Origin: Peptococcaceae bacterium | GTDB lineage: Bacteria > Bacillota > Desulfotomaculia > Desulfotomaculales > Desulfocucumaceae | Length of the DNA: 24,000 bases | Assembly: GCA_023512435.1 (NCBI GenBank) | Contig: JAILZP010000011.1 | Location: forward strand, 31,630-55,629 | Reading direction: 5' to 3' | Part shown: positions 4,226-21,479 of the stretch, in pieces | Position numbering within the stretch: the stretch's first letter is position 1 | Layout: every line of letters starts with the position of its first letter | The notes under the pieces: model-generated | Databases searched by the model: none | Seen by the model: the letters and a program-made list of their open reading frames with translations, nothing else | Told to the model about the DNA's origin: nothing | Made by a program: the position numbers and the translations under genes

Positions 4226-4243
4226 TAAACTGAATCACAAATT

Positions 4244-7409: not shown

Positions 7410-7844
7410 TTATTCGTTATCATGTAATGCGTTCAGGTTTTTTTGAGCCCCCGCAGGGAGTAATTTCCCCCTCAATTTGCAGTATGACATTTCGTCATTC
7501 TGCGCCGGTGATGCCGGAACACCCTTGTTTACCCTCTCTTCCACGATGCTTAAGACCAGTTCTTTATATCTGTTATGGTTCTCCACCATTTTATGGCCGA
7601 TAATGGAGTAGTACATCCACTTGCCTTTTTTCCTGTTGGATATCAGCCCGGCTTTTCTTAAAATACCGAGATGGTGCGAAACCGCCGGCTGGGACATGCC
7701 CAGCCGGTCCACCAGTTCGCAGACGCACATTTCATGATCCGTCAGCAAGCTGATTATTCTCATCCTGGTAACGTCCGACAGCGCGCTGAAGTAACCGCAC
7801 AATTCCCGCACGTCCCGCTTCCCGATCAGGCTGCCGCCGTTCAT
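7410..7844 (-). CDS. arsR: ArsR/SmtB-family metalloregulator with the CVC arsenite-sensing motif
   Basis: I place the start at MNGGS... (ATG 7844-7842), which overlaps the acr3 stop as ATGA. The HTH reads [35 protein letters not shown]. The longer track ORF (to 8099) runs antisense-frame through acr3 and is rejected. Confidence 0.85.
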
Positions 7845-8905
7845 CCCGCATCCCGCAATTCGTGGCTGAAGTATTTGCGTCTGAAATAAAGGGCCACGTT
7901 GACAAGGCTGATCAGCACCGGAACCTCCACCAGCGGGCCGATTACAGTGGCGAAGGCCTGGGCGGAGTGGATGCCGAAGACAGCCACAGCCACGGCGATG
8001 GCCAGCTCGAAGTCGTTGCTGGCGGCGGTGAAGGCAATGGTGGTGGTTTTTCCGTAGTCTGCCCCGATCCACTTTCCAAGGTAAAAGGTCACCAGCCACA
8101 TGAAAACAAAGTATATGGTCAGGGGAATGACAACCCTGATTACTTCGAGGGGCAGGGTGACAATCAGGTCGCCTTTAAGCGAGAACATTACCAGGATTGT
8201 AAACAGCAGGGCAATAAGCGTTATCTTGCTGATCCTGGGAATGAAATTCTTCTCGTACCATTCCCGGCCCCTGGATTTGACCAGCACCGCCCTGGTAATG
8301 TAGCCGGCAATGAAGGGAATACCCAGGTAAATGAACACGCTCTTGGCGATTTCGGCCATGGACACGTTGACCAAAACGCTTTTCAGGCCCAGCCAGGCCG
8401 GAATGACCGCAAGAAACACGTAGGCGTAAATGGAATATGTGAGCACCTGGAAGATGGCGTTGAAGGCCACCAGCCCGGTGACGTATTCCGGGTTTCCGCC
8501 GGCCAGGTCGTTCCACACCAGCACCATGGCGATGCAGCGGGCCAGGCCCACCAGGATGACCCCGGCCATTAAATCCGGCTTGTCCTGCAAAAGCAAAACG
8601 GCCAGGACGAACATGACGACGGGTCCCACAATCCAGTTTTGAACGAGCGACAGGGTTAAAAGCTTTTTATCCATGAAAACGGTGGGAAGTTCCTCGTAAC
8701 GCACCTTGGCCAGGGGGGGGTACATCATTAAAATAAGGCCGATGGCGATGGGTATATTTGTGGTGCCCACCTGAAATTTACCCCAGAAACCGGCGATCTG
8801 CGGGTATACATAACCTGCCCCCACTCCCACGGCCATGGCCAGGAAGATCCACAGGGTTAAATACCGGTCCAGGAATGAAAGTCTGCGTGTCACTGTTTGA
8901 GCCAT
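7841..8905 (-). CDS. acr3: ACR3-family arsenite efflux transporter
   Basis: 354-aa polytopic membrane protein. The N-terminus [25 protein letters not shown] and overall length are typical of Acr3. RBS is GGGAGG, 9 nt before the ATG. Confidence 0.9.
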
Positions 8906-9054: not shown

Positions 9055-9088
9055 ATAAAAAATGGGATGTTGCGTATCCCATTTTTTT
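9055..9088 (-). terminator. Rho-independent terminator after the thioredoxin-like gene
   Basis: Stem ATGGGAT (9062-9068) / ATCCCAT (9076-9082) with a 7-nt loop. It is flanked by A-run and T-run, so it is bidirectional in shape. It abuts the stop codon at 9087-9089. Confidence 0.6.
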
Positions 9089-9611
9089 ATTTTCCCATTT
9101 CCTCCCTTATCCACTTTGAAATCTCTTCCGGTTTGGGTACTTTACCTGTGGATTTAATCTTACCGTTTATAATCAGCCCCGGGGTCATCATCACACCCAG
9201 TTCCACGATTTTGCGCGGGTTTTCCACCTTTTCCACCGAAGCCTCCACTCCCATTTCTTCCAGGACCCTAAGCACTGCGCTCTCCAGGGTCTTGCAGTTT
9301 TTGCATCCCGGTCCCAAAACCTTGATCTCCATTCTTCTTTCCGACCCCCCAACACTTTCTTTTTTTATTTCCGAAATGTGCTTTTTATATTCCGCCAACA
9401 GGGCCTCGCCGTATTTATCCCTGGCGGAATCAGGGAAATAATTCCGCCTTCTGAACCTCGACAACAGTTCGGAGATGCGCCGGTCTTCAGTCAGGGGCTC
9501 CAGATCCGCAACCTCACGGATTACTTCGTCAAGCCCGAAGACCCCTATGTTATTGCCCCCGACACTGAACATTTTCGGTCTCGGTGAACGCGGCTCGCAG
9601 CAGCCGCCCAT
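9087..9611 (-). CDS. MTH895/ArsE-type thioredoxin-like protein with a roughly 95-aa N-terminal extension beginning MGGCC
   Basis: The C-terminal 80 aa, MEIKVLGPGCKNCKTLE...MTPGLIINGK, are a close paralog of the 80-aa ORF at 12934-13176 (CxxC in GPGCKNC). I place the start at ATG 9611-9609. The further-upstream track extension overlaps the CcdA remnant in another frame. Confidence 0.7.
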   Translation of the reverse strand: MGGCCEPRSPRPKMFSVGGNNIGVFGLDEVIREVADLEPLTEDRRISELLSRFRRRNYFPDSARDKYGEALLAEYKKHISEIKKESVGGSERRMEIKVLGPGCKNCKTLESAVLRVLEEMGVEASVEKVENPRKIVELGVMMTPGLIINGKIKSTGKVPKPEEISKWIREEMGK

Positions 9612-9645
9612 GATCCTCACGCCCCTTTCCAACTGATTTACCGAA

Positions 9646-9834
9646 TCAGGTATTCGTCCACAAAAACCACAGCCCCAGGACGATAAGCACCATCCCGCCA
9701 ATCTTTTGCAAAACCTCGCTCCAGTTTCCTATGACCTGAATGTTCTTTAAAAGCCCGGTGAAAGTCCCCGCCAGGAGCAGGGGAATGCTCCTGCCAATAG
9801 AGTACAGGAACAACAGCAAGAACCCGTAAATATT
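9646..9834 (-). pseudogene. C-terminal remnant (62 codons) of a CcdA/DsbD-family thiol-disulfide transmembrane protein
   Basis: My translation: NIYGFLLLFLYSIGRSIPLLLAGTFTGLLKNIQVIGNWSEVLQKIGGMVLIVLGLWFLWTNT-stop. This matches the last two TM helices of CcdA (LYSxGxxIPxLL ... GGxxLIxxG). There is no start codon. It begins in frame directly after the TAG of the upstream ArsR gene. Confidence 0.6.
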
Positions 9835-10215
9835 CTATGCAGGTTGCGAATCTGATTTTTGACCTGTTTTACAATTTATTATGCAACTGTCGTTTTCCAG
9901 CTTTTCCAATCTCGCACTCTCCTCTTTGAATTCCGGCAGCTGCCCGATGTCCACCCTGAGAAACTCCAGGAAATCGTTTAACGTTCTCTCCGTAATGTCC
10001 CCGTTTAACATATAGAAAGTTTTTTGAGCTTCCTTGGCTTCCCTGAGGATGGTGGCCTCCTTTAATACTTTGAGATGCTGCGAGATCCTGGGCTGGCTTA
10101 TTCCCAGCACCGACTCCAGTTCACAGACGTACATCGGCCTTACGGCCAGCAGCCTCAGTATTCTGAGGCGGGTCGGCTCACCCAGGGCCTTAAATATCTT
10201 GACAAACAGTTCCAT
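9835..10215 (-). CDS. ArsR/SmtB-family transcriptional regulator (second copy, single Cys in the sensing helix)
   Basis: 126 aa. Reads LGEPTRLRILRLLAVRPMYVCELESVLGISQPRISQHLKVLKEA. The C-terminal tail carries CxxxC (DSCIINC). Confidence 0.85.
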   Translation of the reverse strand: MELFVKIFKALGEPTRLRILRLLAVRPMYVCELESVLGISQPRISQHLKVLKEATILREAKEAQKTFYMLNGDITERTLNDFLEFLRVDIGQLPEFKEESARLEKLENDSCIINCKTGQKSDSQPA

Positions 10216-10238
10216 ACCGCACCCCCATAAATAACTGC

Positions 10239-10251
10239 TTATATAATAATA
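10239..10251. promoter_or_regulatory. 13-mer TTATATAATAATA upstream of the second arsR (shared with 12415-12427)
   Basis: Exact 13-nt identity with the site upstream of the permease gene. Here it is embedded in the palindrome ATAATATTAT, 24 nt upstream of the ATG. Confidence 0.4.
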
Positions 10252-10284
10252 TTATCCATATGCACGTGTCAAATGCTTTTCCGG

Positions 10285-11265
10285 TTATTGCATAGCTTTT
10301 TCTCTCCGGAAAACACTTGGTGACCAGCGAAGTATCCAGGCCATTACCGGCATCTGGATGAGCGGATTGACGGCCAGCATAACCACCGTCAGGGGTGAAA
10401 AGAATTGGGAGGCCAGGCCGATGGCCAGCGAAATGTTTTTTCCGGTAACGCTGTATATCAGCGCTATTTCATCCTTCGCCGGTAATTTTGCCCTGCGGGC
10501 CAGCCAGACGGAAACGGCGAACTGCAAGATGTAAAAAACCAGGATCGCCGGGACGATTATGAATATGCTGTGCCAGATGGAGACAATCCTCGGGGCGCCC
10601 AGGGCCATCGAGATAAAGACAATCCCGAACATGCCCAGCATGGACAAAGGGGGCAATACCGGCCTGACGTTCATGAAGCCCTGTTCGCCCTTGGCTTTGA
10701 TGATCAGCCTCCTGGTTATGTCACCGGCAATCATGGGAATGAGGATTACCAGGATAGTCCCCTTGAACATGGCCAGGGCGTCAATTGAAATGAGGGAGTG
10801 GGCCAAGATCAGCATGCTCACCGGAATGGTCAGGATGCTCAGGGTAAGCGACAGGGCTACGATAACCAGGGCCAAGGCCACATTCCCCTTGGCAAACCCG
10901 GTCCACCCCGCCACCATGCCGGCGCAGGGGGTGACGCTCAAAAGAAGTAAAGCAGCAGCGAAGTCCGGGTGTCCCCGGAAGGCAGCCAGCGCCACCAGGA
11001 AGCCCATCAGCGGCGAGATGACAAAATTGAGCAACAACGACAGGGAGATGGGCCGCAGGTTTTTGGCCGCCTTGACCGTCTCCTCCACCCTGATGCCCAC
11101 CATCATGGGGAAGATCATCAAAAAAAGGGTAAAGTTTATATACTCCTTCAACCCCTTTGAAAATTCCGGGGCAAACCACCCCACGGCGGCTCCGGACAAA
11201 ATTGACAGCGCAATCAGGTAGATCATGTTTTTATCAAAAAACTTGGCTATCCCCTGCAGATTCAC
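10285..11265 (-). CDS. BASS/SBF-like (ACR3-related) membrane carrier
   Basis: 326-aa polytopic protein with the overall pattern of bile-acid:sodium-symporter-fold arsenical-resistance-type proteins. GTG start with AGGAGG 8 nt upstream. Confidence 0.7.
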   Translation of the reverse strand: MNLQGIAKFFDKNMIYLIALSILSGAAVGWFAPEFSKGLKEYINFTLFLMIFPMMVGIRVEETVKAAKNLRPISLSLLLNFVISPLMGFLVALAAFRGHPDFAAALLLLSVTPCAGMVAGWTGFAKGNVALALVIVALSLTLSILTIPVSMLILAHSLISIDALAMFKGTILVILIPMIAGDITRRLIIKAKGEQGFMNVRPVLPPLSMLGMFGIVFISMALGAPRIVSIWHSIFIIVPAILVFYILQFAVSVWLARRAKLPAKDEIALIYSVTGKNISLAIGLASQFFSPLTVVMLAVNPLIQMPVMAWILRWSPSVFRREKAMQ

Positions 11266-11336: not shown

Positions 11337-12380
11337 TTAACCTGCAATATATCCGAAGAACATGCCGGTGATGGTGGACAGGGCAACCACCAGCAGGACA
11401 TAGACCGATGTCTTCTTCACCCCCATCACCCGGCCGATGACAATCATATTGGGCAGGCTTAAGGAGGGTCCGGCCAACAGCAGCGCCAATGCCGGTCCCT
11501 TGCCCATGCCCATGTCCAGTAATGCCTTCACAATGGGCACTTCAGTCAGGGTGGAGAAGTACATCAGGGCGCCAAAAACCGATGCCACGGCGTTGGACGC
11601 AAGGCTGTTTCCGCCCACCGCGGCTTCCACCCATTGCTGCGGGATGACCGCCTTAAGCATCCCGGCCACAAATACACCGATCAATAACACCGGGAAAATC
11701 ATTTTTACAAACTTCCAGGTCTCCCTCAGCCAGTCCACGACCTCATCCTTGCTGTACCAGAAAGCCAGAACCAGAACCATTGAATTTAACAGAGTAATCA
11801 GGATGGCAATCTTGGACCACAGGGGAATACCGGCGGTCCCGAAGAGGAGTATGGCCACCAGCACTCCGAAGAAGGCCAGCAACTGGATCACCGGCTTGCC
11901 TTCCCCGCCGGCGAACATGCTCTCGTCTTCTTCCTTGAATTTTTCCTCTTTCCTGAAGATAAGCGCCATCAACAGGCCTATTATTATGGAAAAGCTAATG
12001 GCCCCCACGGCCCGGGCCAGGCCAAGCTCCCAGCCCATTTTGCGGGCGGTGAGCACTATGGCCAGTATGTTGATGGCCGGGCCGGAAAACAGGAAAGTGA
12101 CCGCCGGACCAAGGCCGGCGCCTTTTTTATGAATACCGGCAAACAGGGGCAATATAGTACATGAACACACCGCCAGGATGGCCCCTGAAACCGAAGCAAC
12201 GCCATAGGCCGTGGTTTTTTTGGCCCTGGGGCCGAAATATTTGATCACGGCCCCGGTGGAAACCACCGCCGCTATCCCGCCGGCGATGAAAAAGGCGGGC
12301 ACCAGGCACGTCAGCACGTGGGCCGACAAATACTCCAGAAGTTCATTCACACCGCTCATCAAGATGTTTGTAATGATCAT
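11337..12380 (-). CDS. DUF318/COG0701 permease (ArsP-like)
   Basis: Polytopic. It has a Cys pair in a TM helix (AVCSCTILPLF) as in ArsP-type permeases. I prefer the ATG at 12380 (GGAGG 9 nt upstream) over the track's TTG at 12389, which abuts the RBS. Confidence 0.75.
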   Translation of the reverse strand: MIITNILMSGVNELLEYLSAHVLTCLVPAFFIAGGIAAVVSTGAVIKYFGPRAKKTTAYGVASVSGAILAVCSCTILPLFAGIHKKGAGLGPAVTFLFSGPAINILAIVLTARKMGWELGLARAVGAISFSIIIGLLMALIFRKEEKFKEEDESMFAGGEGKPVIQLLAFFGVLVAILLFGTAGIPLWSKIAILITLLNSMVLVLAFWYSKDEVVDWLRETWKFVKMIFPVLLIGVFVAGMLKAVIPQQWVEAAVGGNSLASNAVASVFGALMYFSTLTEVPIVKALLDMGMGKGPALALLLAGPSLSLPNMIVIGRVMGVKKTSVYVLLVVALSTITGMFFGYIAG

Positions 12381-12414
12381 TGTTTCCAACCTCCGATAAT
12401 ATATTAGATATTTA

Positions 12415-12427
12415 TTATATAATAATA
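12415..12427. promoter_or_regulatory. 13-mer TTATATAATAATA upstream of the permease gene (shared with 10239-10251)
   Basis: Exact repeat of the arsR-2 upstream 13-mer. It is followed by a near copy, TTATATATAAATA, 3 nt later. It lies 35 nt upstream of the ATG at 12380. Confidence 0.4.
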
Positions 12428-12463
12428 CCGTTATATATAAATATCAACCCTCATTTTTTGAAG

Positions 12464-12499
12464 CCAAAAAATTGCCACCGGATTTTTTAATCCGGCGGC
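12464..12499 (-). terminator. Rho-independent terminator ending the cysteine desulfurase-to-DGC operon
   Basis: Minus-strand RNA: GCCGCCGGAUU-AAAA-AAUCCGGUGGC, then AAUUUUUUGG. The single imperfect position is a G-U pair on the minus transcript but an A-C mismatch on the plus transcript. This supports minus-strand function. Confidence 0.65.
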
Positions 12500-12524
12500 A
12501 GAAGATAATTATACTCCCACAAGT

Positions 12525-12899
12525 CTACCTTCCCAGCTGCCTGCGGATATCGGAACATACCATATTTATATCTTCCGGCAGCAGGTTGAAGTCGTGATTT
12601 TTCTTAATTCCCAGATCTGTGGCAACCACATGGTCGGTCACGTTGAAACCGGCGTGTTCCAGCGTCTTTTTGGCGCAGCAGGCCTGGCAGCCGTCTATGG
12701 CCACAATGCGCCTGGCCGCTTTGGCCGACTCAATAAAGCTGTCCAGATGCCCGCCGATTCCGGCCAGGCAGTACAGCTTGCCCACCCCGGCCCTGGTCAG
12801 ATCCACCCCGGCCTGGTTCGCTATCTGCCCGACGTTGGATCCTCCGGAGCAGGGAAAAATCAAAATTTCAGTGGCTTCGCAGGTGCATGTATTAGACAT
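12525..12899 (-). CDS. DGC-domain putative zinc-binding protein
   Basis: 124 aa, Cys-rich (CTC, FPCSGG, YCLAG, IDGCQACCAKK including the DGC signature). RBS is AAGGAG, 7 nt before the ATG. Confidence 0.75.
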   Translation of the reverse strand: MSNTCTCEATEILIFPCSGGSNVGQIANQAGVDLTRAGVGKLYCLAGIGGHLDSFIESAKAARRIVAIDGCQACCAKKTLEHAGFNVTDHVVATDLGIKKNHDFNLLPEDINMVCSDIRRQLGR

Positions 12900-12933
12900 T
12901 TAACTTCTCCTTTCCGTTAATTGATTATCTATT

Positions 12934-13176
12934 TTATTTCATTTCTTCTTTGATCCATCTGGCTATGTCCTTGCGGGAGGGAACCCGCCCGAAAACCTTG
13001 ACCTTGCCGTTAATCACCAGTCCCGGGGTCATCAGGATGCTGTACTGCATTATTTTTTCCATGTCCTCCACTTTTTCCACGTCGGCATCAACTCCGATTT
13101 CCTCCAGTGTTTTTCTTACCTCCCTCTCCAGCTCGTGACATTTCTTGCATCCGGGTCCGAGCACCTTGATTTCCAC
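12934..13176 (-). CDS. MTH895/ArsE-family thioredoxin-like protein (redox-active disulfide protein 2 type)
   Basis: 80 aa: MEIKVLGPGCKKCHELE...MTPGLVINGKVKVFGRVP. CxxC sits in a thioredoxin-fold context. GTG start with GGAGGAG 9 nt upstream. Confidence 0.85.
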   Translation of the reverse strand: MEIKVLGPGCKKCHELEREVRKTLEEIGVDADVEKVEDMEKIMQYSILMTPGLVINGKVKVFGRVPSRKDIARWIKEEMK

Positions 13177-13214
13177 ACCTCATCACTCCTCCAGTTTAGC
13201 AAATTAGTATATGT

Positions 13215-13760
13215 TTAAGATATTTCATATCCGAGGGCGGCCACTATCTCCAGCATGGGATCCTTCAGGTCCCGGTATTCGTCCCTGAACAGCGGCAGGC
13301 AGTTCTTAATCTGCTGTTCTCCCAGCAGGAGTTTGGTGGCGAAGGCCAGGCAGGTCATCTCACCGCAGTCCCTGCAATTGGTCTTTGGAAGCCAGCCGTA
13401 AATCTCCAGGGGTTTGGGGCGTGATTTAAGCTCATAACTGGGAACAATCTTTTCCCTGCGGTCCCAGGTGTCGTTGATCAGGTCCTTTAACCAGTCCAGC
13501 ACCTGGTAGGCGTCTGTGGCGTTCACCGCCTTGGCCATTGTTACGCGGTCCGGGTATAGCGTTATCAGGCGAACGTCTTTGGTGAACGTAAGGTTTTGCG
13601 CGTGCCTGTTGTAGGTGGCGTTTTTGATTACCGTATTCAGGTACGGCATAACCCCGCTGATGTCGTTTGACAATTCCGCCTTGACCCTGACTTTGTTGGC
13701 AACCACAATGCATGGTTCGATAAAAACTATATCAATCCTCTCCAGAAGCAAATCAATCAC
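13215..13760 (-). CDS. Fe-S-binding protein with a CO dehydrogenase/acetyl-CoA synthase gamma-subunit-type 4Fe-4S motif
   Basis: 181 aa. LPKTNCRDCGEMTCLAFATKLL matches the N-terminal Fe-S domain of AcsC/CdhE-type corrinoid Fe-S proteins. The preceding roughly 120 aa carry no motif I recognise. The start codon is ambiguous (GTG 13760 or TTG 13751). Confidence 0.65.
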   Translation of the reverse strand: MIDLLLERIDIVFIEPCIVVANKVRVKAELSNDISGVMPYLNTVIKNATYNRHAQNLTFTKDVRLITLYPDRVTMAKAVNATDAYQVLDWLKDLINDTWDRREKIVPSYELKSRPKPLEIYGWLPKTNCRDCGEMTCLAFATKLLLGEQQIKNCLPLFRDEYRDLKDPMLEIVAALGYEIS

Positions 13761-13769
13761 CGCCTTTAC

Positions 13770-14915
13770 CTATTTGCCCGCCAGTTCTTCCAGGGCTTTG
13801 GCCAGATAGTCTATCTCCCCGGCGGTGTTGAAGTAACCCAAACCCACCCTTACGGTACCGCGGTCAATAGTGCCTATGGTGCGGTGGGCGCAGGGGGCGC
13901 AGTGCAGCCCGGCCCTGACCATTATCCCGTATTCCATGTCCAGCCTGTGAGCCAGGTCCTCGGGCCTGTACCGCCCCAGGTTGAAAGAAAGCACTCCCAC
14001 TGTCCGATCGGGTTCAAGTGGGCCGTACAGTGTCATCCCCGGTATTCTTTCCAGTCTTTCGACGGTGTACCGCTTCAGTTCCATTTCGTGCCGCCTGATC
14101 CTGTCAATACCCTCGTTCAAAATAAATCTCACCGCCTCCCCCAGCCCGGCCAGCCCGGCCACGTTTGGAGTACCCGGTTCGTAGCGGTCGGGCAGATCGT
14201 CGGGCATCCTTTCCAGAATTGAATGTCCGCCGGTACCCCCTTCTTTTAAAGGTCTCGGGGAAAATCCCTCTCTTATGTAAAGCCCTCCTGTGCCCTGCGG
14301 GCCCAGCAGGCCCTTGTGGCCGGTAAAAGCCAGCAAATCCACGTTCATTGACTGAACATCAATGGGGTAAACTCCGGCCGTTTGCGCGGCGTCAACCAGA
14401 AAACATATTTTCCTCCTGCGGGCTTCCGCTCCTATTATCTCAACCGGCATCAAAGCGCCCGTCACGTTGGAGGCGTGAGTCATGACAATCATTTTCGTAT
14501 CGGGACGCAAGGATTCGACCACTCTGCCGGGGTCAAGGCGGCCCTCCGGAGAACAGGAAACGGCCGTTATCCGGATGCGTTCCCGGCTTTCCATCACCTT
14601 CAGGCAGCGCCAGACCGCATTGTGCTCCATGGAGGTGGTAACCACGTGGTCCCCCGGGCCGATCAGCCCTTTCACGGCCAGATTTATAGACTCGGTCACA
14701 TTGGCTGTAAAGATTATTCTCCCGGCGTCAGCGACGTTAAACAACTTCGCGAGGTATTTACGGACGTCAAAAATTATCCTGTCAGCCTCCAGTGCCCGGC
14801 GGTACGCGCCGCGTCCCGAGCTGACCCCGACTTTCCGCATAAAATCATATACCGCCCGGTAAACCTTTTCCGGCTTTGGCCATGACGTGGCCGCGTTGTC
14901 GAGATATACCTCCAA
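13770..14915 (-). CDS. class-V aminotransferase-fold cysteine desulfurase family protein
   Basis: 381 aa. Reads YLDNAATSWPKPEKV at the N-terminus, FTGHKGLLGPQGTGGLY (PLP-lysine region) and RAGLHCAP (active-site Cys loop). TTG start with GAGGGA 5 nt upstream. Confidence 0.85.
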   Translation of the reverse strand: MEVYLDNAATSWPKPEKVYRAVYDFMRKVGVSSGRGAYRRALEADRIIFDVRKYLAKLFNVADAGRIIFTANVTESINLAVKGLIGPGDHVVTTSMEHNAVWRCLKVMESRERIRITAVSCSPEGRLDPGRVVESLRPDTKMIVMTHASNVTGALMPVEIIGAEARRRKICFLVDAAQTAGVYPIDVQSMNVDLLAFTGHKGLLGPQGTGGLYIREGFSPRPLKEGGTGGHSILERMPDDLPDRYEPGTPNVAGLAGLGEAVRFILNEGIDRIRRHEMELKRYTVERLERIPGMTLYGPLEPDRTVGVLSFNLGRYRPEDLAHRLDMEYGIMVRAGLHCAPCAHRTIGTIDRGTVRVGLGYFNTAGEIDYLAKALEELAGK

Positions 14916-15029
14916 AGCAATCCCTCATTAAATTAATCATTGAAGCATGGTTATATCATTATATGCTTATTATTTCATGTTATCACAATAACTTCAAAAT
15001 GACAATAACTGTTTTCTTTGCCTTTCCGG

Positions 15030-15293: not shown

Positions 15294-15382
15294 AACTTCT
15301 TTTCAAAGACACCTGAATATGGTATTTTAACCTATATAGATTTTTAATATATATATGTGTTATACCTATAGAGGTGGTAAAT

Positions 15383-15772
15383 TTGTGTAGAAATTTGGCA
15401 CCAGGTAATGGAAGCGGGGGCTGCCGGTGTCAGGTGGGACCGATGGAACGATTTATGCAGCCGTGCCTGCTCTTGCTTCTTCACGAGCGCACCGCCGCCC
15501 ACGGATACGAGTTGATTCAGCACCTGCAAGAGTTCGGTTTTAACGAGAATGATGCGGATCCCGGCACGGTTTACCGTAATCTGCGCAGGATGGAGGAGGA
15601 AGGAACTGTCACTTCCCATTGGGACACCGGTAAGGCAGGTCCCGCCAGGCGTATATACCAGTTAACTCCGGAAGGTGAAAAAGTACTGCACCAGTGGGCG
15701 GGGCACATAAGCCACAATATCAGGCGCTTGTCAAAATTTATGGAAAAATACAATCATAATTTCCCCAGATAA
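15383..15772 (+). CDS. PadR-family transcriptional regulator with a Cys-rich N-terminal extension
   Basis: FMQPCLLLLLHERTAAHGYELIQHL...PGTVYRNLRRMEEEGTVTSHW...RRIYQLTPEGEK is a typical PadR wHTH. It is preceded by (M)CRNLAPGNGSGGCRCQVGP. I prefer the TTG at 15383 (GAGGTG 6 nt upstream). The track starts at GTG 15374, inside the RBS. Confidence 0.85.
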   Translation: MCRNLAPGNGSGGCRCQVGPMERFMQPCLLLLLHERTAAHGYELIQHLQEFGFNENDADPGTVYRNLRRMEEEGTVTSHWDTGKAGPARRIYQLTPEGEKVLHQWAGHISHNIRRLSKFMEKYNHNFPR

Positions 15773-15818
15773 TGACTTAACTGTTTTTTCTAATTCTTTT
15801 ACCGGGAGTTGAGCAAGT

Positions 15819-16295
15819 TTGTTCAATGTAATCTTATTTACACTGACTTTAGCCGCACTTATCTATTCATTCATAAAAGACCGGCAGAAGACACGGCAAG
15901 CACTAAAAATTGCCTATAACTCCTTCCGCAATATACTTCCCAGTATGCTTGGCATCATCGGTCTAATCGGGTTAATGCTGGCTTTGGTACCCAAGGAGAC
16001 TATTGAGGGGTTATTTGGTAACAACAGTCCGGCCGGTATATTGATCATTTCTGCTGTGGGCTCGGTGACGCTTATACCCGCCTTTATCGCTTTTCCCCTG
16101 GCGGCTTCACTACTTCAGGCAGGGGCAAGTATAATGGCGGTTTCGATCTTCATTACCACCCTGCTGATGGTCGGGGTACTTACTGCTCCTATGGAGATTC
16201 AATACTTCGGTAAAAAGTTTACCATCCTGCGGAATGTCTTCAGCCTGGCGGCGGCCCTCGGGATAGCTGTTATTATGGGGGTGGCGCTGCAGTGA
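15819..16295 (+). CDS. permease half-protein (COG0701/DUF318-like, part 1)
   Basis: 158-aa polytopic protein with a TTG start. It overlaps the next ORF by 4 nt (GTGA), which implies translational coupling. Confidence 0.65.
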   Translation: MFNVILFTLTLAALIYSFIKDRQKTRQALKIAYNSFRNILPSMLGIIGLIGLMLALVPKETIEGLFGNNSPAGILIISAVGSVTLIPAFIAFPLAASLLQAGASIMAVSIFITTLLMVGVLTAPMEIQYFGKKFTILRNVFSLAAALGIAVIMGVALQ

Positions 16296-16822
16296 AAGAG
16301 CATTTGAAAAAGTACTCTCTTTTTATGTTAATTGTAGTTATTGACTTGATACTCCGCTGGCGGGTGCCCACTGCGGGGAGCACCGCCGTCAGCAGCTCTA
16401 TTGACTACCTTGTGGAAATGCTCCTATTTATCCCCCCTGTCTTTGTCCTGGTGGGGCTTTTGGACGTCTGGGTACCGAGAAAAATTGTGGAAAAGCACGT
16501 CGGCCCTGATTCAGGCGCCAAGGGAGTGGTCATATCAATTCTGGTGGCCACCGCCGCGGCTGGACCGCTTTACGCAGGGTTCCCGGTAGCTGATGCCCTG
16601 CTTAAAAAGGGCTGCCGCCTGGCCAACGCCGTTATCTTTCTTGGAACGTGGGCAACTATAAAGATTCCCATGCTGATGATGGAGATAAAATTCATGGGCC
16701 CGTCCTTTGCCCTTACCCGTCTTATCCTTACAGTACCGGCAGTAATCATTATTGGTTACCTGGTTGAAAAGATTGTTGGAAGCGGGAAAAGACTTAAGCA
16801 AGGTAAAATGAAGCGGTGTTGA
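16292..16822 (+). CDS. permease half-protein (COG0701/DUF318-like, part 2)
   Basis: 176-aa polytopic protein. The segment GPLYAGFPVADALLKKG resembles the GxPxYxxxxxxxPxxxxLxxKG block also seen in the permease fragment at 18238-18543. Confidence 0.65.
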   Translation: MKEHLKKYSLFMLIVVIDLILRWRVPTAGSTAVSSSIDYLVEMLLFIPPVFVLVGLLDVWVPRKIVEKHVGPDSGAKGVVISILVATAAAGPLYAGFPVADALLKKGCRLANAVIFLGTWATIKIPMLMMEIKFMGPSFALTRLILTVPAVIIIGYLVEKIVGSGKRLKQGKMKRC

Positions 16823-17122: not shown

Positions 17123-17431
17123 CTATAACAATGCCTTAATTTTTATCTTTCCCTTTTGGGCTAAACGGCTAATAAAGAAAATCACGCTACCCTCGTTAAT
17201 TTTTAACTTTTCGGCAATATCACTGGTCTGGACTTCACCCTTACTTTTAATTAAAGTTAAAATTTCTTTTTCGACCTCTTCCACCCAATCTTCAAATAAG
17301 GCCCGCACTTCCGGCGTCGCGTAGCTTCCCATTTCTGCCGCCTTAGCTACTGATTCAGTCATATATTTGCACATTTCCATGGGGTTCATCCCACCCATCA
17401 TGCCGCCCATCATACCCATTTGTTCTTTCAT
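17123..17431 (-). CDS. small protein with a Met-rich N-terminus and a C-terminal winged-helix-like domain
   Basis: 102 aa. MKEQMGMMGGMMGGMNPMEMCKYM..., then ...ILTLIKSKGEVQTSDIAEKLKINEGSVIFFISRLAQKGKIKIK. Strong RBS AAGGAGGG 7 nt before the ATG. It lies 45 nt downstream of the third ArsR-family gene. Confidence 0.6.
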   Translation of the reverse strand: MKEQMGMMGGMMGGMNPMEMCKYMTESVAKAAEMGSYATPEVRALFEDWVEEVEKEILTLIKSKGEVQTSDIAEKLKINEGSVIFFISRLAQKGKIKIKALL

Positions 17432-17476
17432 TGTTATGCCCTCCTTGGTTTATTTCTTAAATCTTTTCGTATTCTT

Positions 17477-17791
17477 TTAATTTCCTCGTTTAATTCCATT
17501 ATCCCGGTTTTCTTTAATTGTGTACCTTTTAAATTCACCAAATAAATCCAACAAATCTGCCTTGTCTAACTGGTAGTAAATAAACGCCCCTTGTCGTTCG
17601 GCCTTTACAATACCCGCATCTCTTAAAGCTCTTAAATGAAAGGAAACAAGGGTTTGGGAAAGGCTTGTGGTTTCGATAATCTCAGATACAGAACGTTCAC
17701 CTTTGCCAATAGCAAGTAAAATCCTAAGGCGATTGGCATCTCCCAGAATTTTGAATAATTTAGCTAGCTGTTCTACCATCGAAAACATCAT
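17477..17791 (-). CDS. ArsR/SmtB-family transcriptional regulator (third copy, no Cys in the HTH region)
   Basis: LAKLFKILGDANRLRILLAIGKGERSVSEIIETTSLSQTLVSFHLRALRDAGIV. The start is ambiguous (ATG 17791, 17788 or 17779). The track's GTG 17806 lies within the AGAGGTG RBS. Confidence 0.8.
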   Translation of the reverse strand: MMFSMVEQLAKLFKILGDANRLRILLAIGKGERSVSEIIETTSLSQTLVSFHLRALRDAGIVKAERQGAFIYYQLDKADLLDLFGEFKRYTIKENRDNGIKRGN

Positions 17792-17846
17792 CCAAAAACA
17801 GAGCACCTCTTATAACTGATGTTAACCTATCTTAATATTAGCCTTC

Positions 17847-17871
17847 GCTCATATTAGTCTGTGCTCATATT
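17847..17871. promoter_or_regulatory. direct repeat GCTCATATT x2 upstream of the third arsR-family gene (candidate operator)
   Basis: GCTCATATT at 17847-17855 and 17863-17871 (16-nt phase). A TAATATTA palindrome lies nearby. It is 56-80 nt upstream of the start. Confidence 0.3.
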
Positions 17872-17964
17872 CTATTCACTTTCCGATTTATTGTCAAGAC
17901 CTGATTAAAATAGTTCAAAAAAATATTGCGTTCCGCCCAACGGGCGTTATTTGAAAGGGAGGCG

Positions 17965-18171
17965 TCATTTCTGCCCGTCCAGTTCAGACCTTCTGATCAG
18001 GTAGTGCTGTTCAGGGGACAAGGGCATCCCGTCTTCAACAATAGTTTTACTGAAGAAGTGGCAATCCCACTGTTCAACTTCATTCTTTGGCACTGTTCTG
18101 CCGGTCAGAAAACACCTTGTTCCAATTGCATCCGGCACGGCAAGTCCGCAATCCGAACAATTGCCCATCAT
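17965..18171 (-). CDS. hypothetical Cys-rich small protein (68 aa)
   Basis: MMGNCSDCGLAVPDAIGTRCFLTGRTVPKNEVEQWDCHFF... has CxxC plus two further Cys. RBS is GGGAG, 5 nt before the ATG. A weak hairpin (CGCCC-GTT-GGGCG) and a T-run lie downstream. Confidence 0.5.
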   Translation of the reverse strand: MMGNCSDCGLAVPDAIGTRCFLTGRTVPKNEVEQWDCHFFSKTIVEDGMPLSPEQHYLIRRSELDGQK

Positions 18172-18237
18172 ATCATCTCCCGTTTTTATGGCCTATTATT
18201 CCATATTTATGATACATCCTCCAGTCAAGTCCGCTTC

Positions 18238-18543
18238 GTACCGGAAGAACTGGTGGTTAAAATCGCAGGGACGGGTAATCCCTTCGCTATTCCGGTGGCT
18301 GCCCTGATCGGTGTGCCCATGTATATCCGTGCGGAAACCATAATCCCCATCAGCGCAGTACTCCTGGATAAAGGAATGAGCATGGGCGCCGTAATGGCCC
18401 TGGTAATTGGCGGAGCGGGCGCCAGTATCCCGGAAACAATTATCCTGGCCTCCATTTTCCGTCGTGAACTGGTGATATCCTTTATCCTTGCCGTACTGGC
18501 GGTGGCTATTCTGGCCGGTTATTTCTTTGATTTAGTACTGTAA
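18238..18543 (+). pseudogene. 3' fragment (about 101 codons) of a DUF318/COG0701 permease
   Basis: VPEELVVKIAGTGNPFAIPVAALIGVPMYIRAETIIPISAVLLDKGMSMGAVMALVIGGAGASIPE... is the C-terminal third of this permease family. The upstream part of the 205-aa track ORF is non-membrane, lacks similarity, and overlaps the 68-aa gene antisense. Confidence 0.6.
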
Positions 18544-19173: not shown

Positions 19174-19248
19174 TGGTGCGCCCGGCAGGAATCGAACCTG
19201 CGCTCCCGGCTCCGGAGGCCGGCGCTCTATCCCCTGAGCTACGGGCCT
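19174..19248 (-). tRNA. tRNA-Arg (anticodon CCG), with the top two acceptor base pairs mismatched
   Basis: Hand-folded minus strand: AGGCCCG-TA-GCTC-AGGGGATA-GAGC-G-CCGGC-CTCCGGA-GCCGG-GAGC-GCAGG-TTCGATT-CCTGC-CGGGCGC-A-CCA. The D, anticodon and T arms are perfect. The acceptor pairs at 3-70 to 7-66 only (A1/C72 and G2/G71 clash). A canonical 5' end would be GCGCCCG. Confidence 0.75.
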
Positions 19249-19308
19249 AGGTTTTTCGCACTTTCCCGGCTTCAACCCCCTTTTTGAAGCGTCGGACTCC
19301 CCGGAAAT

Positions 19309-20268: not shown

Positions 20269-20501
20269 TTTTGTACTGGCGTATTACCGCTAGCATTTTT
20301 CTTCTCTGCCACCCACTTCGCCAGTTGCGCCGCCGCATCTACCGCCGCTTCAGCGGCCACATATCCCATACAGGCCATGAGCACGGTATTCACCGCTTCA
20401 TCAGGTATGTCAGGGTAATAGGCTTTCAGACCGGCGACGATTGCCGCAGCCAGGGCCATGAGAAACTTCCTTGACTTCAGGCGCTCAAGCAATGGTCTCA
20501 T
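20265..20501 (-). CDS. small two-helix membrane protein (holin-like or lysis accessory)
   Basis: 78 aa with two hydrophobic segments (FLMALAAAIVAGL; VLMACMGYVAAEAAV). Its ATG overlaps the amidase stop as ATGA. Confidence 0.5.
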   Translation of the reverse strand: MRPLLERLKSRKFLMALAAAIVAGLKAYYPDIPDEAVNTVLMACMGYVAAEAAVDAAAQLAKWVAEKKNASGNTPVQN

Positions 20502-21202: not shown

Positions 21203-21479
21203 GTTTAAGCACCTCACTTTCTAATGGCTCAGGAGCGATTTCCGTTTGCTGTTGAATTGTTTGCACCCGCTGGCTCCGGTTAAACCATATCGTTGCGCTT
21301 TCCTGGACGAAGTACCCGCCCAGGATAATGCCCAAAAGCGGTACCAATGTTTGCACCACGGCCAGGGCGTCCTTGCTGCTCAATGCCTTCCAGCAGAAAA
21401 ATAAAAAAGTGCCGCTAAAGCCGACGGCAAGCAGGTCTTTGAAGCTAAACTCATATGGTCGGCTGAAAAAATTCTTCAT
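21195..21479 (-). CDS. putative holin (two TM segments)
   Basis: I place the start at MKNFFSRP... (ATG 21479, 5 nt after the upstream stop). TM segments are LLAVGFSGTFLFFCW and LVPLLGIILGGYF. It lies immediately upstream of and overlaps the amidase gene. Confidence 0.5.
   Translation of the reverse strand: MKNFFSRPYEFSFKDLLAVGFSGTFLFFCWKALSSKDALAVVQTLVPLLGIILGGYFVQESATIWFNRSQRVQTIQQQTEIAPEPLESEVLKRV

What the first reader, a model, noticed from the sequence alone, without database searches (positions are those of the whole stretch)
12525..14915. Four-gene operon (cysteine desulfurase, ACS-gamma-type Fe-S protein, ArsE thioredoxin, DGC protein) embedded in the ars island: candidate uncharacterised sulfur-transfer/metalloid module
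- **Operon structure:** the genes are tightly spaced (gaps of 9, 38 and 34 nt), each has its own RBS, and a strand-specific terminator closes the unit at 12464-12499.
- **Cysteine desulfurase:** a PLP enzyme that generates persulfide, or selenide from Sec.
- **Fe-S protein:** it carries the LPKTNCRDCGEMTCLAFATKL motif, otherwise known from the corrinoid Fe-S protein of acetyl-CoA synthase, fused to about 120 aa of unknown function.
- **Other members:** a CxxC thioredoxin-like protein and a Cys-rich DGC putative Zn/metalloid-binding protein.
- **Hypothesis (inference only):** none of the four is a canonical ars gene. Together they could mobilise sulfur and relay thiol/redox chemistry immediately upstream of three carriers. 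Possible roles are forming or processing thiolated or Fe-S-bound metalloid species, or repairing Fe-S clusters damaged by As(III).
Basis: inference. Interest (0 to 1): 0.65.

Follow-up and report, generated by a model that had tools for sequence, protein, structure and literature searches.

The report
Uncharacterised sulfur/Fe-S genes in arsenic island
Four real, co-transcribed genes join two gene pairs that recur next to arsenic-export genes in oxygen-avoiding bacteria from many phyla, and one pair (a cysteine desulfurase plus a small iron-sulfur protein) has no known function and appears nowhere in the papers I could search.

Summary
Four minus-strand genes sit at 12525-14915 with gaps of 9, 38 and 34 nt: a TIGR01977 cysteine desulfurase, a 181-aa protein with a PF04060 Fe-S domain ("FeSp"), an ArsE-type thioredoxin and a DGC protein. 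A conserved promoter-like block precedes them and a clean terminator follows at 12500-12463.

The conserved units are two pairs, not the four-gene set.

- **CSD→FeSp:** in 80 FeSp-anchored genome loci from at least 12 phyla, 61 carry ars-type genes on the same strand within 5 kb. A dedicated desulfurase clade lies directly upstream of FeSp in 16 loci.
- **Carrier fusion:** in 29 other loci FeSp carries a weak Se/S-carrier-like N-terminal domain instead. Only one locus has both.
- **ArsE→DGC:** this pair is already known as the tail of arsR-arsP-arsE-DGC operons, which are arsenic-induced in P. mercurii ND132.

All four genes together occur only in the window's close relatives and, reordered, in two other Bacillota.

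Housekeeping Fe-S assembly is not supported. The most likely function is sulfur delivery to an arsenic-specific Fe-S/thiol redox protein that works with ACR3 and ArsP efflux. The chemistry is untested, and no arsenic-responsive operator was found upstream. This is a new variant of a known kind, of moderate to high interest.

The parts
14916..15010 (-). Promoter region of the four-gene unit. It holds the promoter-like site GTGATA-17-TATAAT at 14986-14958 and the direct repeat AGTTATTGT x2.
   Evidence: One search found the promoter scan hit. One search shows this is the only block of the 458-nt spacer conserved with L114. One search shows it does not share the AT-rich element of the arsP and arsR promoters.
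13770..14915 (-). SufS-like (group II) class-V PLP cysteine desulfurase of the TIGR01977 family, 381 aa. It carries the GHK (PLP lysine) and RAGLHCAP (catalytic cysteine) motifs.
   Evidence: Aminotran_5 E 2.9e-91; TIGR01977 464.8 bits (cut-off 377); SclA 372.5 (cut-off 525); best solved relatives are SufS/CsdB; it falls in the clade of FeSp-linked desulfurases.
13215..13760 (-). 'FeSp', 181 aa (178 aa if it starts at the TTG at 13751). The N-terminal alpha+beta domain of about 115 aa has an invariant Cys17. The C-terminal domain is a 4-Cys [4Fe-4S] domain of the CFeSP/RnfB type (Cys129, 132, 137, 154).
   Evidence: family and alignment. AF2 pLDDT 89.9; match to the CFeSP N-terminal cluster domain, 42-44% identity, hmm E 2.4e-11; the N-domain occurs almost only together with the FeS domain.
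12934..13176 (-). ArsE/MTH895-type thioredoxin-like protein, 80 aa, with the CKKC redox motif.
   Evidence: Thioredoxin_3 E 1.8e-28; TIGR00412 107.3 bits (cut-off 62). It lies next to DGC in 19 of 80 FeSp loci and in L119-L121.
12525..12899 (-). DGC-domain protein, 124 aa. Invariant residues are Cys5, Cys7, Cys17, Cys44, Cys75 and His82; Asp69 and Cys71 of the DGC motif are conserved in at least 90% of sequences.
   Evidence: PF08859 E 7.9e-36; 2214 homologues, about 60% identity is common. AF2 pLDDT 86.6, a flavodoxin-like alpha/beta model with no solved homologue.
12463..12500 (-). Intrinsic terminator that closes the unit.
   Evidence: 12-bp stem, 7 G-C pairs, T-tract; inverted repeat, 92% complementary.
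11337..12389 (-). ArsP_1 permease with a CSC motif, in the next transcription unit. Its own promoter-like sites lie at 12447-12414.
   Evidence: ArsP_1 E 1e-82; promoter-like sites.
10285..11265 (-). SBF/ACR3-like carrier, below the acr3 equivalog cut-off.
   Evidence: SBF E 2.4e-37; acr3 114.5 bits against a cut-off of 282.8.
9835..10215 (-). ArsR/SmtB metalloregulator.
   Evidence: Its promoter shares TATTATTATATAA with the arsP promoter.
7841..8905 (-). True ACR3 arsenite efflux transporter. An ArsR gene follows it, inside ORF 7410-8099.
   Evidence: TIGR00832 452.3 bits (cut-off 282.8). ArsR domain in the downstream ORF.
15374..16822 (+). Divergent PadR regulator (15374-15772) plus a split ArsP_1 permease pair (15819-16295 and 16292-16822).
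   Evidence: The same PadR divergence is seen in L118. The same split pair follows FeSp in Thermincola potens.

Best explanation
The unit is an accessory sulfur / Fe-S / thiol-redox module of an anaerobe's arsenic-resistance island. It is made of two separately conserved gene pairs placed under one promoter.

**Pair 1: desulfurase and FeSp.** A dedicated SufS-like PLP desulfurase takes sulfur from cysteine as an enzyme persulfide (selenium from selenocysteine is not excluded). I infer that it passes this sulfur to the downstream protein FeSp. FeSp has a substrate- or partner-binding alpha+beta domain with one invariant cysteine, plus a CFeSP-type [4Fe-4S] electron-transfer domain. In phyla without the adjacent desulfurase, FeSp instead carries a Se/S-carrier-like N-terminal domain. 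Delivery of S (or Se) to FeSp is therefore the conserved theme. FeSp almost always sits beside ACR3, ArsP or a DsbD/thioredoxin relay. I infer that its cluster supplies electrons to turn over a Cys17 persulfide or Cys17-S-As adduct, producing sulfide- or thiol-bound As(III) for the efflux carriers, or keeping the thiol relay reduced.

**Pair 2: ArsE and DGC.** This is the usual 3' end of arsR-arsP-arsE-DGC operons. A CxxC thioredoxin-like protein and a six-cysteine protein presumably bind or reduce arsenical-thiol adducts destined for ArsP.

**Shown versus inferred.** Shown: gene identities, intact catalytic and ligand residues, the operon anatomy, and the conserved linkages. Inferred: who passes what to whom, and the substrate.
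For: **Genes and anatomy.**
- Gene identities and transcription-unit anatomy.
- The desulfurase has the PLP-lysine and catalytic-cysteine motifs (sequence) and SufS-type relatives.
- FeSp keeps all four CFeSP cluster ligands plus an invariant Cys17.

**FeSp-anchored loci.**
- 61 of 80 loci, from at least 12 phyla, carry ars-type genes on the same strand within 5 kb: ACR3/SBF 38, Trx_3 37, ArsP 29, ArsR 28, DGC 22, DsbD 17, ArsC 14, ArsM 8, ArsD 3.
- The gene directly upstream is the desulfurase in 13 loci or DsbD in 12. The gene directly downstream is ACR3 in 17.

**Control.** Desulfurase-anchored metagenome loci whose desulfurase is more distant (below about 450 bits) have no ACR3, ArsP, Trx_3 or DGC nearby under the same pipeline.

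**Dedicated desulfurase clade.** FeSp-linked desulfurases form one largely coherent clade.

**Carrier fusion.**
- The N-terminal extension of the roughly 268-aa FeSp forms gives PF11823 Se_S_carrier as top Pfam hit in 6 of 6 sequences tested. The best score is 26.9 bits, above the gathering score of 25.
- The fusion is present in 29 loci and an adjacent desulfurase in 16. Both occur together only once.

**DGC-anchored loci.** Desulfofundulus kuznetsovii, Desulfolucanica intricata and a MAG all show Trx_3-DGC adjacency with ArsP, ACR3/SBF and FeSp within a few kb.

**Other support.**
- Thermincola potens JR has ArsR-Trx_3-ArsP-x-CSD-FeSp-split ArsP.
- The arsR-arsP-arsE-DGC operon is arsenic-induced in P. 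mercurii ND132.
Against: - No experiment bears on FeSp or this desulfurase clade.
- The unit has no ArsR next to it. It lacks the AT-rich element shared by the arsP and arsR promoters. It is divergent from a PadR gene, so arsenic induction here is unproven.
- 19 of 80 FeSp loci show no ars gene nearby. Several have unrelated neighbours such as a LysR regulator, an ECF sigma factor or hydantoinase B.
- All four cluster ligands are cysteines, so the cluster has no open iron site for sulfide chemistry.
- The Se_S_carrier assignment is below the Pfam threshold in 5 of 6 sequences.
- Desulfurase adjacency versus carrier fusion is confounded with phylogeny (Bacillota versus Omnitrophota/Planctomycetota).
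- ArsP, ACR3-like and ArsR families also serve other metals, so the true substrate could be Sb, Se, Te or another soft metal(loid).
Confidence: 0.5

Rival explanations
1. Arsenite-proof Fe-S maintenance. As(III) poisons Fe-S clusters and their assembly. On this reading the desulfurase plus FeSp is an inducible mini-system that rebuilds or replaces a damaged cluster, or FeSp is an arsenic-tolerant electron carrier whose own cluster needs a private sulfur supply. ArsE and DGC keep thiols reduced. No sulfur reaches arsenic.
For: - The desulfurase lies immediately before a 4-Cys [4Fe-4S] protein.
- The pair occurs in some loci with no detectable ars neighbour: L006, L014, L017, L024, L042, L067.
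- A radical SAM/SPASM enzyme, which needs Fe-S clusters, lies next to FeSp in L119, L121 and L068.
- One representative has a PyrK-like NAD/[2Fe-2S] module fused to or adjoining the FeSp N-domain.
Against: - No scaffold or carrier (IscU, SufU, SufBCD, NifU, A-type) is in the window.
- FeSp resembles no known scaffold.
- Most FeSp genes (64 of 80) have no adjacent desulfurase.
- Repair alone does not explain the Se/S-carrier fusion and the tight adjacency to ACR3, ArsP and DsbD.
Confidence: 0.2
2. FeSp is a sensor or regulator. Its Fe-S cluster or Cys17 senses redox state, sulfide or metalloid, and its TBP-like domain binds DNA or a partner to control ars genes. The desulfurase merely matures the sensor.
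For: - JGI names family members 'ArsR family metal-binding transcriptional regulator'.
- The N-domain's nearest folds are single TBP repeats: TMq 0.30-0.39 on the whole query, about 80-98 aligned columns, most at rmsd 2.7-4.0.
- PF04060 domains serve as sensory modules in Clostridiales sigma-54 activators (PMC6615313).
- The window's unit lacks its own ArsR.
Against: - No HTH or other DNA-binding family was detected.
- The fold match is weak, with no hit at E <= 0.001.
- 28 of the 80 loci already encode an ArsR on the same strand within 5 kb.
- Its position inside operons next to transporters, and its S-carrier fusion, are atypical for a regulator.
Confidence: 0.1
3. Selenium handling. The TIGR01977 enzyme acts as a selenocysteine lyase. 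FeSp, ArsE and DGC traffic selenide, either for As-Se detoxification chemistry or for a selenium need unrelated to arsenic.
For: - TIGR01977 was defined around EF_2568, a probable selenocysteine lyase (PMC2276186).
- The SclA model scores 372.5 bits.
- The FeSp N-terminal extension hits the Se/S carrier family.
- TsoR-like and TsoA-like genes (a selenoprotein system) lie nearby at 17123-17806.
Against: - The SclA score is below its cut-off of 525.
- No selD, selA/B, YedE/F or in-frame TGA genes were seen in the window.
- The conserved neighbours are ars genes, not selenium genes.
Confidence: 0.1
4. Housekeeping genes that lie near ars genes by chance, or four independent genes that do not form a functional unit.
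For: - The four-gene set as such is rare: 2 of 80 loci plus close relatives.
- 19 of 80 FeSp loci lack ars neighbours.
Against: - Linkage is seen from three independent anchors: FeSp, the desulfurase and DGC.
- The control loci are negative.
- The housekeeping desulfurase models fail.
- The unit has short gaps, one conserved promoter block and one terminator.
Confidence: 0.04

Closest known systems
arsR-arsP-arsE-DGC operon ('operon C') of Pseudodesulfovibrio mercurii ND132 (bioRxiv 10.1101/2022.10.17.512643)
   Same: - The PF13192 ArsE thioredoxin is directly followed by a PF08859 DGC protein, with an ArsP_1 permease and an ArsR in the same cluster.
- That operon is up-regulated by As(III) and As(V).
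- The same block recurs in L119-L121 and in many FeSp loci.
   Different: - In the window, arsE-DGC are transcribed behind a desulfurase and FeSp rather than behind arsR-arsP. A terminator separates them from arsP.
- The ND132 description mentions no desulfurase or Fe-S protein.
- The function of ArsE and DGC is itself only presumed.
SufS/SufE(U) and CsdA/CsdE cysteine desulfurase-acceptor pairs; selenocysteine lyase SclA (EF_2568)
   Same: - It is a group II class-V PLP enzyme with the HK lysine and HCA catalytic cysteine, followed directly by a small cysteine-bearing protein that could accept the persulfide.
- It belongs to the TIGR01977 family, as EF_2568 does.
   Different: - The acceptor candidate FeSp is unrelated to SufE, SufU or CsdE and carries its own [4Fe-4S] domain.
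- The SufS, CsdA, IscS, NifS and SclA models all score below their cut-offs.
- The genomic context is ars, not suf/isc or selD.
N-terminal [4Fe-4S] domain of the corrinoid iron-sulfur protein large subunit (AcsC/CdhE; PDB 2ycl, 4djd) and RnfB
   Same: - A 33-50 residue LPKTNCxxCGxxTCLAFA...C motif with all four cysteine ligands.
- 42-44% identity and rmsd about 3 A over 54 residues.
   Different: - FeSp lacks the TIM-barrel and corrinoid-binding parts (181 aa against about 445 aa; NF003195 57 bits against a cut-off of 306).
- The domain is attached to an otherwise unknown alpha+beta domain.
- There is no acetyl-CoA pathway context.
ArsD arsenic metallochaperone (delivers As(III) to ArsA/ArsB)
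   Same: A small cytosolic cysteine-bearing protein encoded right next to an arsenite efflux component. FeSp is directly upstream of ACR3 in 17 loci.
   Different: - There is no sequence or fold relationship.
- ArsD has no Fe-S cluster and uses three cysteines.
- ArsD co-occurs with FeSp in only 3 of 80 loci.
- A chaperone role for FeSp is speculation.
SAO (selenocysteine-assisted organometallic) locus of Clostridioides difficile (bioRxiv 10.1101/2022.07.06.499078)
   Same: It has the same design logic: an ArsP-family efflux permease with a CSC motif, a small thioredoxin-like protein, a Cys-rich or DsrE-like sulfur-relay-type protein and Fe-S proteins, in anaerobes.
   Different: - The window's proteins fail the SAO models: SaoE 108 bits (cut-off 325) and SaoT 19 bits (cut-off 65).
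- The window has no MerB-like SaoL, no ABC importer and no selenoproteins.

Membership tests
TIGR01977 cysteine desulfurase family (class-V aminotransferase, group II) | Full-length match above the curated cut-off | tested here: met
   464.8 bits against 377, covering model positions 1-376 of 376. Aminotran_5 E 2.9e-91.
TIGR01977 cysteine desulfurase family (class-V aminotransferase, group II) | PLP-binding lysine and catalytic cysteine loop present | tested here: met
   Sequence...AFTGHKGLLGPQG... and ...VRAGLHCAPCAH.... These correspond to the SufS HK and R-x-G-H-H-C-A motifs. The motif identity rests on my own knowledge of SufS.
TIGR01977 cysteine desulfurase family (class-V aminotransferase, group II) | Desulfurase (or Sec lyase) activity | not testable with these tools
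   This needs an enzyme assay with Cys and Sec.
Selenocysteine lyase SclA (NF040779) | Score above the curated cut-off | tested here: not met
   372.5 bits against 525.
Housekeeping desulfurases SufS / IscS / NifS / CsdA | Equivalog-level score and a partner scaffold or acceptor gene nearby | tested here: not met
   scores against cut-offs: SufS 265 and 198 (475 and 661), NifS 171 (531), CsdA 160 (494), IscS 144 (548). No SufE, SufU, IscU, SufBCD or NifU was found among the window ORFs.
PF04060 FeS domain (CFeSP/RnfB-type [4Fe-4S]) | Domain match above gathering score, with four conserved cysteine ligands | tested here: met
   46.7 bits against 23. C132 and C137 are invariant; C129 and C154 are conserved in at least 90%; aligns to the cluster domain of 2ycl/2h9a.
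PF04060 FeS domain (CFeSP/RnfB-type [4Fe-4S]) | Actually binds a [4Fe-4S] cluster | not testable with these tools
   This needs UV-vis, EPR or Moessbauer spectroscopy on purified protein.
Corrinoid Fe-S protein large subunit (AcsC/CdhE, NF003195) | Full-length protein with TIM-barrel and corrinoid-binding domains | tested here: not met
   57 bits against 306; only model positions 4-55 of 450 matched. The protein is 181 aa.
MTH895/ArsE thioredoxin-like family (TIGR00412 / PF13192) | Score above cut-off and a CxxC motif | tested here: met
   107.3 bits against 62. Sequence GPGCKKCH.
DGC domain family (PF08859) | Domain match and conserved cysteines, including the DGC motif | tested here: met
   122.8 bits against 27. 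C5, C7, C17, C44, C75 and H82 are invariant; D69 and C71 are conserved in at least 90%.
DGC domain family (PF08859) | Zinc (or metalloid) binding | not testable with these tools
   Only predicted. There is no solved homologue.
ars resistance cluster | ArsR-family regulator plus an arsenite efflux carrier in the same neighbourhood | tested here: met
   ACR3 at 7841-8905 scores 452.3 bits against 282.8. ArsR genes lie at 7410-8099, 9835-10215 and 17477-17806. ArsP_1 lies at 11337-12389.
ars resistance cluster | Arsenate reductase ArsC present | tested here: not met
   No LMWPc or ArsC family hit was found among the window ORFs scanned. ArsC is present in 14 of 80 related loci.
ars resistance cluster | Induction by arsenic, or an ArsR operator at this unit's promoter | tested here: inconclusive
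   The 13-nt element shared by the arsP and arsR promoters is absent upstream of the desulfurase. The operon is divergent from PadR. Expression data are needed.
arsR-arsP-arsE-DGC operon type (ND132 operon C) | arsE directly followed by the DGC gene, with arsP and arsR in the same transcription unit | tested here: inconclusive
   arsE-DGC adjacency is met (34-nt gap). arsP and arsR follow, but only after a terminator and their own promoter, and the order differs.
SAO system (SaoE/SaoT) | Equivalog scores for SaoE and SaoT | tested here: not met
   SaoE 108.4 bits against 325; SaoT 19 bits against 65.

The most novel reading that the evidence does not exclude
FeSp, supplied with sulfur (or selenium) by a dedicated desulfurase or by its own fused carrier domain, could be the missing enzyme that puts S or Se onto As(III) or methyl-As(III). 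It would make thio- or seleno-arsenicals inside anaerobic cells for export through ACR3 or ArsP. That would be a new, widespread ars gene pair and a genetic handle on biogenic thioarsenicals in sulfidic environments. A variant of this reading is a [4Fe-4S]-driven, thioredoxin-independent reductase that acts on arsenic-thiol adducts.
Probability: 0.15. Interest if true: 0.8.

Novelty: new variant of a known kind. Interest (0 to 1): 0.6.

Why it matters
Arsenic resistance is among the best-catalogued detoxification systems, yet its gene lists come mostly from aerobes and facultative organisms.

- **An unassigned ars-linked family.** FeSp forms about 330 clusters at 50% identity and has at least 587 genomic matches. 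It sits inside ars clusters of strict anaerobes from at least a dozen phyla. It has no assigned function, no NCBIfam model and no paper in the library I could search.
- **A sulfur link.** FeSp either follows a dedicated cysteine desulfurase or is fused to a sulfur/selenium-carrier-like domain. This ties sulfur mobilisation to arsenic handling in the organisms and habitats (sulfidic sediments, aquifers, paddy soils) where thiolated arsenicals form and where arsenic mobility matters.
- **Practical gains.** If confirmed, it would add new ars genes and give markers for metagenomic surveys. It could also explain how anaerobes protect or exploit thiol and Fe-S chemistry under arsenic stress.
- **A correction.** Part of the family is annotated in JGI data as an 'ArsR family ... 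transcriptional regulator', which nothing here supports.

Tried and rejected
**Searches that found nothing useful.**
- The Rfam scan of the whole window found no riboswitch or leader in the 458-nt spacer upstream of the desulfurase.
- An exact-sequence look-up of the 181-aa FeSp failed because callers use the 178-aa start. The DGC protein located the same contig instead.
- DGC has no solved homologue by sequence. Its model gives only generic flavodoxin-like matches with E >= 0.013, so no function could be drawn from them.
- The TBP-like match of the FeSp N-domain is weak. I did not treat it as evidence of DNA binding.
- A profile of the N-terminal extension against PDB gave only spurious phycobilisome-linker hits. 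The Se/S-carrier call rests on Pfam alone.
- A search for N-domain relatives with other architectures found essentially only the two known forms. The exceptions were one PyrK-like and one desulfurase-tail junction, which may be gene-call artefacts.

**Ideas considered and set aside.**
- Radical SAM/SPASM as a core partner: it appears in only 1 of 80 loci, plus L119 and L121.
- A shared operator between this unit and the arsP or arsR promoters: not found.

**Literature.** Six of the eight full-text searches looked for DGC/arsenic, the Pfam and TIGR accessions, the COG name, or cysteine desulfurase with ars genes. They found only the ND132 preprint and unrelated papers. A 2018 review of ars genes mentions neither a desulfurase nor an Fe-S protein. 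This shows absence in the held library, not proof of novelty.

**Readings rejected.**
- An acetyl-CoA-pathway CFeSP: only the 33-residue domain matches.
- Membership of the SAO system: the models fail.

Full report

Yes. The minus strand carries four ORFs at 13770-14915 (381 aa), 13215-13760 (181 aa), 12934-13176 (80 aa) and 12525-12899 (124 aa). They are separated by 9, 38 and 34 nt, and each is preceded by a purine-rich ribosome-binding motif.

All four give strong, full-length family matches:
- Aminotran_5 at E 2.9e-91, with TIGR01977 at 464.8 bits (cut-off 377).
- PF04060 FeS at residues 124-156 (E 2.6e-12).
- Thioredoxin_3 and TIGR00412 'MTH895/ArsE' at 107 bits (cut-off 62).
- PF08859 DGC at E 7.9e-36.

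It has a 12-bp stem with 7 G-C pairs at 12500-12473, followed by a T-tract, on the minus strand only. No minus-strand terminator lies inside the unit.

A promoter-like site (GTGATA-17-TATAAT, 14986-14958) lies in the only part of the 458-nt upstream spacer that is conserved in a relative whose proteins are 85-90% identical. Gene callers start FeSp in relatives three codons later, at the TTG at 13751, giving 178 aa.

**2. What surrounds it?**

Downstream, behind the terminator and its own promoter-like sites (12447-12414), the minus strand carries:
- an ArsP_1 permease (11337-12389);
- a weak ACR3-like SBF carrier (10285-11265);
- an ArsR (9835-10215);
- a remnant of a DsbD membrane protein (9646-9819);
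- a second Trx_3 ORF (9087-9701);
- a true ACR3 (7841-8905, 452 bits against a cut-off of 283);
- another ArsR.

Upstream and divergent are a PadR regulator and a split ArsP_1 permease pair (15374-16822). Further right lie a TsoR-like ArsR, a TsoA-like gene, a truncated ArsP_1, tRNA-Arg, an integrase and an amidase.

No ArsC, ArsA, ArsD or ArsM is in the window. The region is therefore a metalloid-efflux island with one bona fide arsR-acr3 unit. 'ars island' is a fair label but not a complete one.

**3. The proteins themselves.**

*The desulfurase.* It is a group II (SufS-like) enzyme with the GHK lysine and RAGLHCAP cysteine loop. Its nearest solved relatives are SufS and CsdB. It fails every housekeeping equivalog model (SufS, IscS, NifS, CsdA, DndA) and also the SclA selenocysteine-lyase model, which scores 372 against a cut-off of 525.

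*FeSp.* It is a well-defined family with 232 homologues by word-indexed search. Invariant positions include Cys17, Arg25, Pro39-Tyr40-x-Asn42, Arg64, Asp83, Asn96, Cys132 and Cys137. Cys129 and Cys154 are conserved in at least 90% of sequences.
- The AlphaFold model is confident (pLDDT 89.9).
- The C-terminal 55 residues superpose on the [4Fe-4S] domain of the corrinoid Fe-S protein (2ycl, 4djd; 42-44% identity). A family profile finds the same chains at E 2.4e-11.
- The N-terminal domain is an alpha+beta sandwich. Its nearest, weak, neighbours are single TBP repeats, and no match reaches E 0.001.
- A library-wide search with the N-domain alone finds 329 clusters at 50% identity. Nearly all have one of two lengths: about 175-190 aa (N-domain plus FeS) or about 265-280 aa with an extra N-terminal domain.
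- That extra domain returns PF11823 'putative Se/S carrier' as top Pfam hit in six of six sequences. One scores above the gathering threshold at 26.9 bits; the other five score 11.7-22.5 bits.

*DGC.* It has six conserved cysteines and a histidine. Its confident model is flavodoxin-like (pLDDT 86.6). It has no solved homologue.

**4.

*Anchored on FeSp (80 genome loci from at least 12 phyla).* 61 loci carry ars-type genes on the same strand within 5 kb.

| Neighbour | Loci |
|---|---|
| ACR3/SBF | 38 |
| Trx_3 | 37 |
| ArsP | 29 |
| ArsR | 28 |
| DGC | 22 |
| DsbD-like | 17 |
| Desulfurase | 16 |
| ArsC | 14 |
| ArsM | 8 |
| ArsD | 3 |

The gene directly upstream of FeSp is most often the desulfurase (13 loci) or a DsbD-like protein (12). 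The gene directly downstream is most often ACR3 (17).

*Anchored on the desulfurase (33 metagenome loci).* Only the closest relatives (about 58% identity or more) sit with FeSp, ACR3 or ArsP. More distant TIGR01977 members have none of these nearby, which serves as an internal negative control for the pipeline. In a tree, FeSp-linked desulfurases form one largely coherent clade.

*Anchored on DGC.* Three genomes were checked: Desulfofundulus kuznetsovii, Desulfolucanica intricata and a MAG. All show Trx_3-DGC adjacency with ArsP, ACR3/SBF and FeSp within a few kb. D. intricata also has the desulfurase-FeSp pair.

Thermincola potens JR has ArsR-Trx_3-ArsP-x-desulfurase-FeSp followed by the same split permease pair seen in the window.

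*The four-gene set itself.* The order found in the window occurs in its close relatives (L114 and L118). All four genes are within reach in only two other loci, in a different order: L003 (Moorellales) and L012 (Alkalibaculum). The conserved units are therefore two pairs, desulfurase→FeSp and ArsE→DGC. The window fuses them under one promoter.

**5. A pattern that speaks to mechanism.**

Of the 80 FeSp loci, 16 have the desulfurase directly upstream and 29 have the carrier-like domain fused to FeSp. Only one locus has both. Two different ways of bringing a sulfur or selenium donor to the same protein is what one expects if FeSp receives S or Se.

Two caveats apply. The split follows phylogeny (Bacillota against Omnitrophota/Planctomycetota). 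The carrier assignment is sub-threshold in most sequences.

**6. What is already known.**

The ArsE-DGC pair is not new. A preprint on P. mercurii ND132 describes arsR5-arsP-arsE(PF13192)-DGC(PF08859) as an operon up-regulated by As(III) and As(V), with the function of both proteins unknown.

TIGR01977 was defined around a probable selenocysteine lyase next to selD.

The SAO locus of C. difficile is an analogous design (ArsP-like exporter, small thioredoxin-like protein, sulfur-relay-like protein, Fe-S enzymes). The window's proteins fail its models.

I found nothing on FeSp or on a desulfurase in ars clusters across the full-text searches, and nothing in a 2018 review of ars genes.

**7. Most likely working, and rivals.**

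My best reading (confidence about 0.5) is an accessory sulfur / Fe-S / thiol-redox module for metalloid detoxification.
- The desulfurase loads sulfur onto FeSp.
- The [4Fe-4S] domain of FeSp provides electrons to turn over a Cys17 persulfide or Cys-S-As adduct.
- The product, or the reducing power, serves the adjacent ACR3, ArsP or DsbD-thioredoxin machinery.
- ArsE and DGC handle arsenical-thiol adducts for ArsP.

Only the anatomy and the linkages are shown. The flow of sulfur and electrons is inferred.

The rivals are:
- private Fe-S maintenance under arsenite stress (0.2);
- FeSp as a sensor or regulator, as one database name suggests (0.1);
- selenium handling (0.1);
- chance adjacency or housekeeping (0.04).

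Points against my own reading:
- The unit has no ArsR and lacks the 13-nt AT-rich element shared by the arsP and arsR promoters.
- 19 of 80 FeSp loci have no ars neighbour.
- The cluster has four cysteine ligands, so it has no open iron site.

**8. Verdict.**

This is a new variant of a known kind: an ars island carrying a conserved, uncharacterised desulfurase/Fe-S module. It is a good, testable lead for arsenic microbiology in anaerobes. It is not a categorically new system.

Noticed in passing
window 9087-9819 (-): ORF 9646-9819 matches only the last ~50 residues of a DsbD_TM membrane protein. The next ORF (9087-9701) has its Thioredoxin_3 domain only at aa 124-198, after a 123-aa unmatched extension. 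Together they look like the decayed remnant of the DsbD + thioredoxin relay that is intact in related loci (L115, L116, L120, L121).
   Followed up: partly
window 15819-16822 (+); L116 10598-11625; L119 15569-16378: An ArsP_1 permease is encoded as two overlapping half-size genes (158 and 176 aa) behind PadR. The same split pair directly follows FeSp in Thermincola potens and occurs in Desulfofundulus kuznetsovii. It is therefore a conserved two-gene form rather than a frameshift.
   Followed up: partly
window 17123-18543: Three features sit together. The ArsR at 17477-17806 is TsoR-like (85.7 bits, cut-off 115). The 102-aa gene at 17123-17431 matches only the C-terminal 84 positions of the selenoprotein TsoA model and lacks the Sec-motif region. 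ORF 17926-18543 matches only the C-terminal third of ArsP_1, so it is probably truncated.
   Followed up: no
window 19174-21217: tRNA-Arg(CCG) at 19174-19248 (-) is immediately followed by a tyrosine integrase (19309-20268), an N-acetylmuramoyl-L-alanine amidase and unannotated small ORFs. This is probably the edge of a prophage or integrative element abutting the metalloid island.
   Followed up: no
window 12390-12472 and 10216-10290: The promoter regions of arsP and of arsR (9835-10215) share a 13-nt AT-rich element, TATTATTATATAA, that overlaps their -10 regions. It is a candidate ArsR operator. It is absent upstream of the desulfurase operon.
   Followed up: partly
L121 10011-12434; L068 7980-12461; L119 10896-13389; L001, L047, L049, L057, L061: In several Thermodesulfobacteriota-type loci, FeSp is followed by a diverged paralogue (about 110 bits). 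In three loci a radical SAM/SPASM enzyme lies beside FeSp.
   Followed up: partly
P0369 (288 aa) and P0245 (208 aa): One representative joins a PyrK-like NAD_binding_1 + [2Fe-2S] module to the FeSp N-domain. Another joins the tail of an Aminotran_5 enzyme to FeSp. These are either real fusions or gene-call artefacts. If real, they hint at the electron donor and the sulfur donor.
   Followed up: no
window 7410-8099 (-): The 229-aa ORF overlaps the end of acr3. The ArsR domain occupies only residues 103-170, so the real arsR gene probably starts near 7830, downstream of acr3 (order acr3-arsR).
   Followed up: no
window 104-6328 (-): The left part of the window is unrelated to metalloids. It carries an SCFA transporter, a short-chain dehydrogenase, an AMP-dependent ligase and a sigma-54 PAS-domain activator, which looks like a fatty-acid or aromatic-acid utilisation unit.
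   Followed up: no
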